From Chloroflexota bacterium (GTDB lineage Bacteria > Chloroflexota > Dehalococcoidia > Lucifugimonadales > JADFKI01), in the NCBI GenBank assembly GCA_027623195.1, contig JAQBUT010000011.1:24650-88649 (forward strand): a stretch of 64,000 bases of DNA, read 5' to 3'. The position numbers were made by a program. This document shows positions 57,001 to 63,000 of the stretch, one piece after another. The first letter of the stretch is position 1. Each line of letters starts with the position of its first letter.

Positions 57001-60000
57001 GTCCGTGGCACCTCGTGCACTACGGCACCAGAGCGGTCGGCGGCGCAGGCCTGGTAATGGTGGAGGCGTCTGCGGTCCAGCCGGAGGGACGCATTACCCC
57101 GTGGGACCTCGGTCTATGGTCGGACGGCCAGATGGAACCCTTGCGCGAGGTAGTGGAGAGCATCGATAGCAGGGGGAGCACCCCGGCGATTCAGCTTGCC
57201 CATGCCGGGCGAAAGGCATCGCACAAGCGTCCGTGGGAAGGCGGCGCGTACCTGGGCCTGCAAGAGGGCGGTTGGGAAATAGTAGGCCCCAGTCCTTTGC
57301 CCTATGAGGACTCCTGGGGGAAGCCGAAGGAGCTTAGCATAGAAGACATAGACGCGATTGTGGCCGACTTCGTTAGCGCCGCGAATAGGGCCGTAGATGT
57401 TGGGATGCGGGCCATTGAGTTGCACATGGCGCACGGATACCTGGCTTGTGAGTTCCTGTCACCGATGTCCAATAAGCGGCAGGACCATTACGGCGGCGGG
57501 TTGGAAAATCGAGCACGGTTTACTCTTCAGGTGGTGAAGGCAGTACGCAACACAATTCCAGAAAGCATGCCGCTGTTCGTTCGCGTGTCCGCCACGGAGT
57601 ATGTGGAGGGTGGATGGGATGTGGACGAGTGCGTGGAGCTTTGCCGTTGGCTTGGCGAAGAGGGCGTGGACCTCATCGACTGCTCCTCCGGAGGCAACTC
57701 GCCAGACCAGACGCTGAAGCCGTATCCGGGCTACCAGGTCCAGTTCGCGTCGCGCATCAGGAAGGACGTAGACATCCTTACAGGCGCCGTGGGTCTTATA
57801 ACCACGCCAGAGCAGGCCGAGAAAGTTCTGGCCGACGGAGAAGCCGATGTGGTGCTACTGGGACGGGAGCTTCTGCGTAATCCCTACTGGCCGCACCAGG
57901 CAAGGGCGGCTTTGGACGAGGAATTCACCGGATGGCCGTCTCCATACGCCAGGGTATCTGAGGTTCGCCAGTACAGGTCGTCGTAAGCTGGGCCTGTAGC
58001 GGCTTTCTGTCCCCAGTAATCAAGAAGGACGCTTATACGATGGTCATGACCCGGAGAAGATTCGTGCTGCCGGCAACCCCGATGGGAACCCCTGCGACCA
58101 GTACCACGGTATCGCCGGATGAAACCCCGCCAACCTGTTTCGCAAACAAGGCACCGGCTGCGAAGAAGTCCTCGACGTTCTCGATGTCACCGAGGGGAAT
58201 GGCTATGACGCCCCACCGCAATGTCAGACGCCTCTGCACCTCCTCGTTTGCAGTCAGGGCCAGTATTTTGGGCAGGGGGCGATACTTGGACACACGTCCC
58301 GCGCTTACCCCGCCTTCCGTAAAGGTTATGATGAGGTTGGCTTTGATTTGGAAAGCTGTGCGCACTGCATCGTAGCTGATAGCGTCCGCCACAGATGCGG
58401 CCTCGGTCTGCCTTCCCTTTTCCAGAATAATGGACTCGTATGGCAGCGCCTTTTCTGCCTCCAGCGCTGTTTGAGCCATTACCTTGACGGCCTCGATTGG
58501 ATACAGGCCCACCGACGTTTCTCCGGAAAGCATTATGGCGTCGGTGCCGTCGAAAATCGCGTTGGCGACGTCGGTGACCTCAGCCCTGGTGGGTATCGCG
58601 GATCTGATCATTGATTCCAGCATCTGCGTTGCCGTTATGACAGGTTTGCCAGCCAGGTTGCAACGCCTGATCAGGTCTTTCTGTATGATCGGCACTCGAG
58701 AGAGGGGAACTTCAACTCCCATGTCTCCCCGTGCCACCATGATGGCGTCACTAACTTCGATGATACTGTCCAGATGGTCCAGGGCCTCCGCGCGCTCAAT
58801 CTTAGAGATGATGTAGCCCTTGGGATTATCCTTTTCCAGGTACGCCCTTCCGCGCACCACGTCGTCTGCATTTGTAATCGTAGAGAGGGCCACGAAGTCG
58901 GCCCCATATTCGGAGGCAAAATTCAGAGCCTCCTTAGCCCGGGCATCGGGAAATGGTTGGGACGGCGCTTTGCCTGGAGTGGTTACACCTCTGCGTTCCG
59001 TGATTCGGCCGCCGACGATTATCTCGCACCTAACGTCTTCGCCCTCGATCTCCTTCACCAGCAACTCAATAAGTCCGTCGTCCAAAAGTATGGGGCGTCC
59101 CACCGTGGCATCCCTATGAAGCCCTGGGGGAGCGACGGAAATAAGATGATAGTCCCCTGTGAGGTCTCTGCTGGTAAGGGTGACTTCATCGCCGGTTTTA
59201 ACGTCCAAGACGCCAGGTATGGTAGGACCGGTGCGGTACTTCGGACCTGGCACGTCCACCATGATTCCTACGGGAATGCCCAGCTTTGCAGATGCCTGTC
59301 GAACTCGGTGGAAAGTGTTTCTGTGGGTATCCAGGTCACCATGGGAGAAATTTAACCTGGCTACTGTCATCCCGCTAAGGATGAGTTCCTCGATCTTTTC
59401 CTCCGACTCTGTAGCAGGCCCAAGAGTGCACACAATCTTCGTTTTCGGCATCCTGTCAATATTTCGCTGGGATTCCATCAATTGGTTATTCCTTTGTCAC
59501 GTTGTAATTGAATAGGCTGTTATGTGAATAAGCAGTCAAACAGGCAAATGTTACATCAATTCCGTGCCATCCACTAGCTAAATAATACCGAATTAGACCG
59601 GTGGATGCGGCGGCCTCCGTATATTGGTATTATCCATATAACTTCAAGGCCCAAATAATTCGGCTTGCGCGGGCATTCGTATTGCGTGAAATTGGAACGC
59701 TACACCGCTTTGCAGTGTGTCCGCATCGAGTCTTAGAATCAAGGCGAGTGACAGTCTTCCTGCCCTCGCTGCGATAAGAGAGGCGTTAATGGTCTCCACT
59801 AAGCAGTTGTATGACCTCCAGGAAACAGATACTGAGATGGCTGAGAAAGATGCCGCCCTCAAAGATGTCCAAGCGAGACTTGCCGACGATAGGCCAATCG
59901 CTGTGGCCAGACAGAAGGCAGGCCAGTTGGAAGCGCAGGTGGAGGCCCAGAGCAAGGCCCGAAACGGCGCTCAGTTGGCAGCGCAGCAAGTCCAGGAGAA

Positions 60001-63000
60001 GGTTAAGAATGTAGAACGCAAACTCTATGGCGGCGGCATAACCAACGCCAGAGAGTTAACAGCCTTCGAAGAAGAGCTGGGTTACCTGCAGGCGCAGTTG
60101 GCGGAGGAAGAGGACAGTCTTCTGGAGCTTATGGTGGTGGTGGAGGATCTCCAGGTTGGCAGAGACGATGCTCTCAAAACGCTGGAGAGTCTGGAGGCCC
60201 AACGGGAAAGCCAACTTCCTTTGCTAAGACAGAGCCAGGAAGCGCTGGAGAAGGATCTAGCTCAGCTTCTAGAGGCCAGGAAGCAGCTAACTCCCAATAT
60301 TCCTCCCCAGCAAATGGCAATCTACGAGTCCCTTCGAAGGACGCGCGGTGGCCAGGCCGTAGCCAAGTTGGATAGAGCACGAGGCGTCTGTCAGGCGTGC
60401 AGAATCGCACTACCGGCCACAGATCTCCAAAAGGCAAAGGCCTCCGCTGAGATCGTCCAGTGCAACAGCTGCCGCAGAATACTTTACGTAGAATGAGTGA
60501 TAAATGCGAGCGATCGGATATTTTCGTGCTAAGGACAGCGGCGCAACCCTGGAGCAGTTAGGCGAGCGATTCGCCGACTACTGCCAGAGGTATCTACACC
60601 AACCCATAATCACTTTTGGCGACGATATATCTGGCGACGAATTATCCAATGGCACCCTTCCACTACAGAATTACCAACGCCTTTTGGACTACATCAAGGA
60701 GTCGGAAAGCAGCTTCCTGATAGTCGTTCCCGATGCCAGCCACCTGGGAGATGATCTTGAGGCAGTAGCCCGATCCATGGTTCAACTGGAATCGACCGGC
60801 TCAAAGGTTGTTTGCGCTGACGACGATATGCCAGATCCCCTGCAGAACGCTCTGGAGACATTGGGTGTTCGAGGCGTGTCCCGAATCCGCAGCGAAAGAA
60901 TAAAGGAATCCATGCGGGAGCGGGCTCTGATGGGCAAGGGCCTTGGAAAGCCGCCCTTCGGCTATCGCAACGGACTGGACGGCGCGATGGAGATTGTTTC
61001 CGAAGAAAAGCCCGTAGTAGAGCTGATCTACCGCCTCTACACCAAGGATGGAATCGGGCTTCGTCTGATAGCCCAGCATTTGAACGAGCGGGACATCAAA
61101 ACCAGACGCGGCGGCCACTGGAATATGGTGACAATACGAGACATTCTCAAGAATTCGACGTATATGGGCACCTACACCCGGTTCGGCCTCCGACTGCCAA
61201 AGAGCCACGAAGCTATTATTCCTCCGCAGGTGTTCCGTTTCGCGCAGGACGAGACCAGGTCCAGAAAACCGGTGGGACGAGTAGTGAACTCCGAGCCGTT
61301 CCTGCTGTCAGGCATGGTCTTTTGCGGTTACTGCCAAAACAAGATGATGGGTGTGACTCGACGACAGTCCTGGAAACGCAAGGACGGTCGTCGATCCAAC
61401 GGAGTATACCGGTACTACCAATGCCAGTCTCGCAACAACATGAGCTTTTGTAAGTACCACACCTGGCGCGCGCCCCTGCTGGAAGGCACGGTAATGTCCC
61501 AACTCAAATACGCGCTCAAGGTTGAGGCCGCCGAGGGTAATGGTGCCGGTACCAACAGGTCTGAAGAGATTCAGGCTGTGTGGGATTTGCGGATCAAGAA
61601 CGCAGATCGAAGGTTCCTGCAGGCCATGAAACGCACGGCCAAAGGCGAGATGGATCTCGGTATGCTGGGTGAGTACCTGAACGCGCTTGATAAGGTCCGT
61701 CACGGAGCGCAGAACGCCAAGAACCCCAAAGACGTGGACGCTTCATTTTCGCAGTGGGATTCCATGGATTTTGGTGACCAGCAGGGATTTCTGCTAGAGC
61801 ATGTCGCCAAAGTCGTCGTTCAGGACGACTCCGTGGACGTTCTAGTCTGAGGACTCCCGGGTGTCCAGATTAAATCTCTCCCCTTATCGTGCTAAAATGG
61901 TAAAGTTCAAGATGGCTGGGCGGCCGCTGTTCCGTGCTCTTGCGAAAGAGTGGGGAATAGAGGAAAGTCCGAGCACCACTGGGAAGGATGCCCGTTAACT
62001 GCGGGGCGGGGTGACCCGACGGAAAGTGCCACAGAAACATACCGCCCGCTTCGGTGGGTAAGGGTGAAATGGTGAGGTAAGAGCTCACCGCTCCGGTGGT
62101 GACATCGGAGGCAAGGCAAACCCCATCCGGTGCAAGGCCTAATAGGGGGAATATGGGACCCGGACCATCCCCGGGTTGGCCGCATGATCCCGATGGCAAC
62201 ATCGGGGCTAGATAGATGGTCGCCGTCCGCCACTGGCGGATACAAAACTCGGCTTATAGGCGGTCTTGAACAAGACGTCACCCACCGGCAATCTGGTGTG
62301 TGGGCACAGGTGTCCAAGAGGATCGAGGTTCTGACCCATCGCGCGGTTGACCGGCGCTTGGCCAGCTACTAAAATCTTCATGTAAGGTAGGAGCGTAGCT
62401 CAGCTGGTAGAGCATCGGTCTCCAAAACCGAGGGTCGCGGGTTCGATCCCTGCCGCTCCTGCCAACCTTCCAGCGCATAACAAAGGCATAATAGGCTCAT
62501 TACTGTCCCGTTCCTATTCGTTTTGACTTTGTGACCATTGGTCACTATTCTAACATTCTTCTAACGATCTAGTTAATATCTCGCAGCGTATTATTAGAGT
62601 TGTCTGGCCTGTCATGAAAGGCGGATGCCTGTTATTCAGACAGTGGGCTACCGAAATCTCACCATTCTCCTTTGCCCGGCGGCGGTCAGGGCAGCAGAAT
62701 TAGGTTCAAAATATTCCCCGAGCAACTACGGCGAGATAGTTGTGCTCCGATTGCTGGACTCTTTGGTGCGGCAGGGGGTATTCGGTTTTCAGCTGCCATG
62801 CTACCCATCATCTTGCGCTTCATTTGACAAACCCGGCGGTCGATCCTAACCTTAGGGTCTTAATCTGTCAGCCGTCGTTAATGTACTCGTGGAGGACATA
62901 GACATGGAATCGCGTTTAAATCGCGAACACGAGACTCACACAGCCAGGGACTTGTATTCACGAATCGTTTGTCGCTGCAATTGTGGTTGGGAGGAAGCTG

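What a model noticed while it worked through the whole genome (the two positions that open the first line are those of the whole stretch)
59789..62272. Domesticated, catalytically dead large serine recombinase in the CT398-like gene - rnpB operon of Dehalococcoidia
g1812 has the whole build of a phage serine integrase but has lost the catalytic RxS serine and DRxSR motifs while keeping the DNA-binding recombinase and zinc-ribbon domains. It is single-copy, inherited vertically across the class and fixed behind a CT398-like coiled-coil zinc-ribbon gene and before the RNase P RNA gene: an integrase turned host DNA-binding protein.
Evidence so far: One match each in 14 of 21 genomes of the order, identity 63-40%, and in 12 of 25 other genomes of the class. 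CT398-like gene directly upstream in 13 of 13 and 9 of 11 loci, rnpB within 1.5 kb downstream in 8 of 13 and 6 of 11, no mobile genes beside it. After the first strand the motif reads YFRAKD, YYRIRS, YFRPKE, FFHL, YFRF etc., no conserved Ser, against YCRVS/YRRVS/YIRVS/YLRVS in the genome's four mobile recombinases. Column conservation about 0.52 in the catalytic domain, 0.64 recombinase, 0.75 zinc ribbon; four Cys invariant. Profile matches A118 and SPbeta integrases over the C-terminal domains only (E 1e-20; call 181). Pair near in 236 genomes of the order.
(Added by a program. Inside this text positions count along the whole contig: contig position 24,650 is position 1 of the stretch shown here. 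"Call 12" and the like, gene names such as g00115 and contig names such as C1 are that model's own, and its searches are not shown. The text may have been shortened before it was handed on; [...] marks where a part breaks off. The agent that wrote the report below was given it as the finding of a first reader that could run no searches.)

Follow-up and report, generated by a model that had tools for sequence, protein, structure and literature searches.

The report
Dead integrase kept as DNA binder
A gene that descends from a phage-type DNA-inserting enzyme has lost its cutting residues but kept its DNA-reading surfaces almost unchanged across about half of a bacterial class, so it now most likely binds one fixed DNA site for the host instead of recombining DNA.

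Summary
The core observation is confirmed. Window 60504-61850 encodes a full-length large serine recombinase (LSR) fold without the catalytic Ser or DRxxR motif; 0 of 104 orthologs keep both. It occurs once in 104 of 201 Dehalococcoidia genomes, was not found outside the class, forms one group against intact LSRs and is under purifying selection (dN/dS 0.04-0.18). Against its nearest intact relatives at similar overall divergence, conservation is mirrored: catalytic domain 0.30 vs 0.48, DNA-reading segments 0.50-0.80 vs 0.21-0.43. This points to one frozen DNA target.

Corrections:
- It is in about half the class, not all of it.
- It sits inside an older CT398-like / RNase HI / rnpB cluster.
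- rnpB has its own -10 element, so 'operon' is unsupported.
- Two families keep it without a CT398-like neighbour.
- One family lost its zinc ligands.

Best reading: a domesticated, sequence-specific DNA-binding dimer (0.8). Its role (regulator, att-site guard or DNA bridge) is open, and no binding site was found. Ten literature searches showed no description. This scan noted the same family three times before on other DNA.

The parts
60504..61850 (+). Catalytically dead large serine recombinase homolog, 448 aa
60504..60878 (+). Degenerate resolvase-fold catalytic domain (aa 1-125): YFRAKD in place of YxRxS, DASHLGD in place of DRxxR; fold kept, dN/dS 0.15
60879..60941 (+). Helix E (aa 126-146); the C-terminal, DNA-facing half is conserved and the N-terminal half is variable class-wide
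60942..61289 (+). Recombinase domain and linker (aa 147-262); recognition helix W206-D213 and hairpin Y224-G228 nearly frozen
61290..61502 (+). Zinc-ribbon domain core (aa 263-333): C274, C277, C307, C316; DNA-reading hairpin R286-W290 and Y302-Q306; dN/dS 0.04
61548..61721 (+). Coiled-coil motif (aa 349-406), kept in shape, as variable as in intact relatives
59789..60496 (+). CT398/HP0958-like coiled-coil zinc-ribbon gene, ending 7 nt before the recombinase homolog; usual but not obligate neighbour
59710..59739 (+). Candidate promoter of the two-gene unit (TTGCAG-18-TAGAAT), read by eye; the scan did not list it
   Evidence: sequence; similar spaced hexamers upstream of many orthologous loci; not listed
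61890..61898 (+). Extended -10 element (TGcTAAAAT) of rnpB's own promoter
61908..62272 (+). rnpB, RNase P RNA class A
   Evidence: 304 bits
62389..62461 (+). tRNA-Trp(CCA) with a promoter-like site at 62347-62375; context, not part of the unit

Best explanation
An ancestral integrase gene came to lie between the CT398-like gene and the RNase HI gene of an old housekeeping cluster, lost the rest of its element and its active site, and was kept by the host as a sequence-specific DNA-binding protein. Shown: intact LSR architecture, loss of the catalytic motifs, one copy, one group against intact LSRs, purifying selection, and frozen DNA-contact segments. Inferred from LSR structures: it binds as a dimer, held by the dead catalytic domain and helix E, to an att-like site of about 40-50 bp whose sequence is nearly the same across the class, and it cannot cut. 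Least certain: what the binding does. I favour occupancy of one or a few sites in or beside a conserved gene, acting as a repressor or roadblock (about 0.4 given the above), over att-site guarding, DNA bridging or guiding a partner enzyme.
For: Loss of catalysis: 0 of 104 orthologs keep both motifs; 0 of 125 catalytic-domain columns reach 90% against 27 of 116 in the recombinase domain and 15 of 71 in the zinc ribbon. Core-gene behaviour: one place per genome in 104 of 201, scores of at least 346 bits against 215 for the next LSR. No ortholog-grade hit outside the class in a 251-genome phylum sample or among viral contigs. 46 dead rows lie on one side of a branch against 22 other LSRs, SH-aLRT 100, and most multi-member families group together (quick tree). 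Pairwise identity co-varies with the CT398-like gene (r 0.74, n 84). dN/dS over 24 disjoint pairs: catalytic 0.15, helix E 0.08, recombinase 0.08, zinc ribbon 0.04, coiled coil 0.18. Mirror test, 13 nearest intact LSRs vs 31 dead (overall 0.36 vs 0.40): recognition helix 0.23 vs 0.69, recombinase hairpin 0.25 vs 0.80, zinc-ribbon strand 11 0.28 vs 0.61, catalytic 0.48 vs 0.30. W290 (96 of 104) and Y302 (99 of 104) align with LI integrase T288 and Y297, which contact bases. Family f26 lost at least three of four zinc ligands in 9 of 9 genomes yet kept most DNA-facing residues.
Against: No binding site was found: none in the promoter of its own unit (by eye), among over-represented words or dyads of the own genome, among non-coding sequence shared with a distant carrier genome or as synonymous-site constraint at the locus. 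The 13 intact relatives probably have different targets, so their low values are expected; the test shows a shared target in the dead family, not what it is. About half the class lacks the gene, including some members of a carrier family (f41), so it is dispensable. Inactivity and DNA binding are inferred, not assayed.
Confidence: 0.8

Rival explanations
1. Host-encoded guard against incoming integrases: it sits on a conserved attachment site (a tRNA, rnpB, ssrA or core gene) or poisons active LSR tetramers by mixing with them.
For: A target frozen across a class fits a site inside a structural-RNA or core gene. In the part of the output I saw, the non-coding DNA shared with a distant carrier was rRNA, tRNA, riboswitch-like and REP-like sequence. 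One of the nearest intact relatives lies between tRNA-like pieces in the own genome. LSRs of Dehalococcoides target ssrA (PMC3146451, passages).
Against: Carrier genomes can hold many other recombinases (9-11 resolvase-domain matches in G109, G127, G161 and G181, a count that may include the dead gene itself, against 8-12 in non-carriers G055, G116, G133 and G083), so there is no general protection. The recognition residues differ from those of the nearest intact group. The dimer and coiled-coil surfaces needed to mix with other LSRs are the least conserved parts.
Confidence: 0.15
2. Chromosome-architecture protein: dimers on several sites bridge DNA through the retained coiled coils, like a synapse that never cuts.
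For: The coiled coil is retained with its A-x-G turn and aligns with the LI integrase coiled coil, which mediates self-association (PMC5499577, passages); dN/dS 0.18.
Against: The coiled coil is no more conserved than in intact relatives (0.23 vs 0.23). No repeated genome-wide motif was found.
Confidence: 0.15
3. Specificity subunit of a two-protein recombinase: a separate small serine recombinase supplies catalysis, as proposed for CcrA/CcrB and DsiA/DsiB.
For: Two-gene serine recombinase modules exist in this class (PMC3146451, passages).
Against: Carrier genomes G064, G125, G176 (one contig, 96%), G005 (100%), G015, G001 and G038 have no PF00239 match at all, and only 2 of 10 f19 genomes do while 10 of 10 carry the gene. 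No recombinase gene recurs beside it.
Confidence: 0.04
4. Functional partner of the CT398-like protein or of RNase HI/RNase P (for example a nucleic-acid-structure binder in R-loop or RNA metabolism).
For: Adjacent to the CT398-like gene in 87 of 104 loci, usually a few nucleotides apart, while RNase HI adjacency falls to 37 of 98.
Against: No CT398-like gene was found in 5 of 5 carrier genomes of f9 and f41 (the same query rang in 3 of 5 others). The cluster exists without it inside and outside the class and in other phyla (PMC3372290, figure legend). RNase HI was within 4 kb in 0 of 80 close loci.
Confidence: 0.1
5. Still an active recombinase with a relocated nucleophile, or simply a slowly decaying remnant.
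For: Among the 120 closest proteins the catalytic domain has invariant positions, including S126 and S130; 5 of 104 have an RxS-like string.
Against: S126 and S130 are not kept class-wide (15 and 27 of 104). No Ser, Tyr or Arg column of the domain reaches 90%. dN/dS is far below 1 everywhere and no stop was seen inside any of the 104 matches, which excludes decay.
Confidence: 0.04

Closest known systems
Large serine integrases (SPbeta SprA/YokA 9DXH/9Y66, LI/A118 4KIS, Bxb1 9IU2, PhiC31 9RAH)
   Same: Domain order and fold from residue 1 to 448, including coiled coil and C-terminal hairpin; base-contact positions of LI integrase map onto conserved residues.
   Different: No catalytic Ser or DRxxR, no att sites or mobile genes beside it, single-copy vertical inheritance, and DNA-reading segments frozen while the catalytic domain drifts.
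Nearest intact LSR group (P0246, P0257, P0262 and others; own genome C11:16779-18260)
   Same: About 30% identity over the full length and a shared N-terminal pattern; occurs in the same class.
   Different: Keeps YxRVS and DRFGR, is patchy (P0257-type intact matches in 4 of 201 genomes), and has variable recognition residues.
TldR nuclease-dead TnpB repressors
   Same: Works-like analogy: a mobile-element enzyme that lost catalysis and kept DNA targeting (search listing and start of abstracts only).
   Different: Unrelated fold; TldR is RNA-guided and its repression is shown, whereas nothing is assayed here.
DsiB/DsiA and CcrA/CcrB serine recombinase modules
   Same: LSR family; DsiB occurs in Dehalococcoides and targets a structural-RNA gene; weak NCBIfam CcrA/B/C hits.
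   Different: Those sit on islands with att repeats; scores are far below the cut-offs (51 vs 700 bits) and no partner recombinase co-occurs.

Membership tests
Large serine recombinase (active) | N-terminal resolvase-fold domain | tested here: met
   PF00239 26.7 bits over the 23.3 cut-off; VIA Z 11-14 to catalytic domains
Large serine recombinase (active) | Recombinase domain, zinc ribbon and embedded coiled coil | tested here: met
Large serine recombinase (active) | Catalytic YxRxS serine | tested here: not met
   YFRAKD in the window; 5 of 104 with an RxS-like string, no conserved column; motif recalled and seen in intact relatives
Large serine recombinase (active) | DRxxR active-site motif | tested here: not met
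   DASHLGD in the window; 6 of 104 with a similar string, none together with RxS
Large serine recombinase (active) | Lies on a mobile element with att sites | tested here: not met
   Recurring neighbours are housekeeping genes; no conserved junction sequence seen; GC and GC3 like its neighbours
Large serine recombinase (active) | Recombines DNA | not testable with these tools
   needs an assay
CcrA/B/C, XisF, DsiB-type island recombinases | Score above the family cut-off and a co-encoded partner recombinase | tested here: not met
   40-51 bits vs cut-offs of 375-900; carriers without any PF00239 match
Domesticated dead-enzyme transcription factors (TldR-like, by analogy) | Catalysis lost, targeting surface kept under selection | tested here: met
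Domesticated dead-enzyme transcription factors (TldR-like, by analogy) | Defined operator and effect on transcription | tested here: inconclusive
   no site found

The most novel reading that the evidence does not exclude
The protein is a host-owned, class-old 'att-site occupant': a dead integrase dimer that sits on one frozen sequence in a structural-RNA or core gene and thereby controls that locus or blocks integrases that target it. That would be a form of regulation or anti-element immunity built from the integrase itself.
Probability: 0.2. Interest if true: 0.85.

Novelty: new variant of a known kind. Interest (0 to 1): 0.64.

Why it matters
I found no description of a full-length serine integrase kept as a non-catalytic core gene (ten full-text searches of the open library; subscription papers are not covered). 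It would extend enzyme-to-regulator domestication, known for TnpB, to LSRs. It gives a natural series of more than 100 divergent proteins predicted to read one site, which is useful for learning the LSR recognition code sought in genome engineering. It points to an unknown conserved control site in Dehalococcoidia, including SAR202-labelled genomes. The frozen recognition residues make the question directly testable by one DNA-selection experiment.

Tried and rejected
Binding-site searches, all negative:
- Over-represented 8- and 10-mers of the own genome were an IS-like end repeated at contig ends.
- Spaced dyads were terminators, REP-like repeats and LexA-box-like words (labels recalled).
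- Comparison with carrier G096 (family f9; 95 stretches) gave rRNA, tRNA, riboswitch-like and REP-like sequence. One search printed only the top 150 of about 1,530 hits and was partly cut. One search was swamped by coding sequence and set aside. In one search (274 upstream pairs) the hits above the mismatched-pair control were tRNA or unmasked coding sequence. One search printed the top 45 rows from 283 shared dyads.
- No synonymous-site constraint beyond Ser/Arg codon classes in the gene or its neighbour.
These screens are crude and would miss a degenerate, asymmetric or intragenic site.

Other dead ends:
- A CT398-like tree could not tell one gain from several losses.
- Complex prediction with the CT398-like protein was not available, so binding is untested.
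- No RNA holder was listed for the locus.
- A recalled cyanobacterial precedent ('Ssr' with HIP1) was not found and is dropped.
- ESM Atlas returned only LSR clusters.
- The relocated-serine idea from the close-homolog alignment failed class-wide.
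Full report
What is there. The window holds a 235-aa CT398/HP0958-like gene (59789-60496), then after 7 nt a 448-aa ORF (60504-61850), rnpB (61908-62272) and tRNA-Trp (62389-62461), all on +, with pyruvate kinase divergent upstream. 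The 448-aa protein matches Pfam Resolvase (weak), Recombinase and Zn_ribbon_recom. Its AlphaFold model from an 87-sequence alignment has pLDDT 92. It matches SPbeta, Bxb1, PhiC31 and LI integrases (Foldseek E to 8e-21; VIA Z 19.1 with 361 aligned residues and rmsd 15.8 because the domains are placed differently, and Z 11-14 with rmsd 2-4.5 for catalytic domains alone). The coiled coil and C-terminal hairpin align with LI integrase.

Catalysis is gone. The genome's other LSRs read YIRVS, YLRVS and YRRVS where a start could be read (three of four); this one reads YFRAKD, and DASHLGD where intact relatives have DRFGR. I extracted 104 orthologs, one per genome, from a 201-genome class sample. Five have an RxS-like string, six a DRxxR-like string and none both. 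No column of residues 1-125 reaches 90%, against 27 of 116 in the recombinase domain and 15 of 71 in the zinc ribbon. S126 and S130, invariant among the 120 closest proteins, are not kept class-wide, so there is no relocated nucleophile. In family f9 the first strand itself is eroded. The motifs are recalled knowledge, checked against intact relatives.

Distribution. A profile search gave one place of at least 346 bits in 104 of 201 class genomes; the next LSR scores 215. G088 holds a divergent member 4 nt from rnpB. Families such as f50 and f24, with single-contig genomes, lack it. In a 251-genome phylum sample the best hit outside the class was E 2e-26 at 37%. A GTDB scan confirmed 505 related stretches; the 80 best, the only ones shown, are titled Dehalococcoidia, SAR202 or Chloroflexota/Chloroflexi. 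Viral contigs gave one weak, unrelated match. In a quick maximum-likelihood tree 46 dead rows (46 of 105, chosen across families) lie on one side of a branch against 22 other LSRs, SH-aLRT 100 (the careful search did not finish). Pairwise identity tracks that of the CT398-like gene (r 0.74, n 84, 0 of 999 permutations as high). dN/dS from 24 disjoint close pairs is 0.15 (catalytic), 0.08 (helix E), 0.08 (recombinase), 0.04 (zinc ribbon) and 0.18 (coiled coil). It is a maintained gene, not a remnant. Whether it was gained once in a subclade or lost several times is unresolved.

Context. The CT398-like gene is directly upstream in 87 of 104 loci; the misses are ten f9, six f41 and one contig edge. 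No CT398-like gene was found in 5 of 5 f9/f41 carriers searched, while the query rang in 3 of 5 others. An RNase HI gene follows directly in 37 of 98 loci (6 dropped for short flanks), and in 0 of the 80 closest GTDB loci. rnpB lies within 1.5 kb in 46 of 88 (detected with the window's rnpB as query, so a lower bound). The empty site exists: CT398-like directly followed by RNase HI in 7 of 11 non-carrier class genomes and in 5 of 34 genomes outside the class, with no LSR hit in any. The cluster with rnhA or rnpB is also drawn for other phyla in PMC3372290 (figure legend and passages). So the gene sits inside an older cluster. rnpB has its own promoter element: TAnnAT-like within 45 nt in 57 of 60 loci and GnTAnnAT in 45 of 60, against 1.6 in random windows; in the window it is at 61890-61898. 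'Operon with rnpB' is therefore not supported.

What selection keeps. I compared 13 of the nearest intact LSRs with 31 dead orthologs from different families; mean identity overall is 0.36 vs 0.40. The pattern is mirrored (intact vs dead): catalytic 0.48 vs 0.30; recognition helix 0.23 vs 0.69; wing 0.24 vs 0.50; recombinase hairpin 0.25 vs 0.80; zinc-ribbon strands 0.28 vs 0.61 and 0.43 vs 0.69; following short helix 0.21 vs 0.68; linker 0.30 vs 0.17; coiled coil 0.23 vs 0.23. By my count along the alignment, W290, Y302 and M208/V209 correspond to LI integrase T288, Y297 and Y207/N208, which contact bases in the LI-attP structure (PMC3783163, passages). R286 is in 104 of 104, R212 and R226 in 100, W290 in 96. 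The recombinase-domain hairpin is a variable, partly base-reading loop in SPbeta integrase (PMC11722253, passages). Family f26 lost at least three of four zinc ligands in 9 of 9 genomes and kept most of these residues, so 'four Cys invariant' holds only for close relatives. Inference: the family reads one sequence that has hardly changed across the class. Caveat: the intact set probably has mixed targets, and frozen surfaces could also serve a structure-specific contact.

How it most likely works. By analogy with LSRs, which bind their sites as catalytically inactive dimers, it forms a dimer on an att-like site and stays there. It needs no catalytic partner: several near-complete carriers have no resolvase domain at all. 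It gives no general protection from LSRs, as carriers and non-carriers both reach about ten matches. The coiled coil, which mediates self-association in LI integrase (PMC5499577, passages), is kept but not tightened. I found no site: not upstream of the unit, not as an over-represented motif, not shared with distant carrier G096, and not as synonymous constraint. That leaves a degenerate operator or a site inside a conserved gene. I put dead, sequence-specific DNA binder at 0.8. Within that, repressor or roadblock is about 0.4, att guard and DNA bridge about 0.15-0.2 each, and the rest partner-linked roles. Binding to the CT398-like protein is untested.

Novelty. It fails membership as an active LSR but works like an LSR's DNA-binding half. 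The nearest conceptual precedent is TldR (listing and abstract starts only). Ten searches showed no description; for papers not named above I saw only listings and abstract starts, PMC4390886 returned no passage, and no supplements were read. This scan recorded the same family three times on other DNA (e1-7461954, e1-6679266, e1-1413717). These are unchecked notes that agree with what I had already found, including the RNase H neighbour. Relative to the few lines of those notes that I saw, this report adds the mirror-conservation test, the separate rnpB promoter, independence from the CT398-like gene and from any partner recombinase, and the zinc-free family. Verdict: real, a new variant of a known kind, interest 0.64.

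Noticed in passing
L059, L069, L073, L081, L082, L083, L086, L087, L088 (family f26): All nine f26 orthologs have lost at least three of the four zinc ligands while keeping most of the DNA-facing hairpin: a natural zinc-free LSR zinc-ribbon domain.
   Followed up: partly
window 63075-64000: A type III restriction-like (ResIII) ORF begins after tRNA-Trp, with lower GC and GC3, and runs off the contig end; probably the edge of an island at the tRNA.
   Followed up: no
G000:C11:16600-18350 (L255): An intact LSR of the group nearest to the dead family is flanked by tRNA-like pieces resembling the tRNA-Pro called at C11:3255-3328, suggesting integration into a tRNA gene.
   Followed up: partly
G000:C11:143793-145600: Another intact LSR lies directly beside the tmRNA gene, as DsiB islands do.
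   Followed up: no
G000, about 20 contig ends: One IS-like terminal sequence (two variants) breaks the assembly at about 20 contig ends.
   Followed up: no
G000 and G096 intergenic regions: At least three families of short REP-like palindromic repeats are shared nearly unchanged between these distant genomes.
   Followed up: no
L266 (G029:C10): The CT398-like gene lies about 180 bases from the end of the fetched locus, which looks like the contig end, so the missing ortholog in G029 may be an assembly break.
   Followed up: partly
L085 (G006:C1:1956954-1957959): The ortholog matches as two pieces in separate open frames, a possible frameshift or sequencing error.
   Followed up: no
window 27436-27714: T-box leader.
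   Followed up: no
window 53022-55223: A 733-aa CysRS-like ORF with a long C-terminal extension, already noted as a glycosyltransferase fusion in e1-7822405.
   Followed up: no
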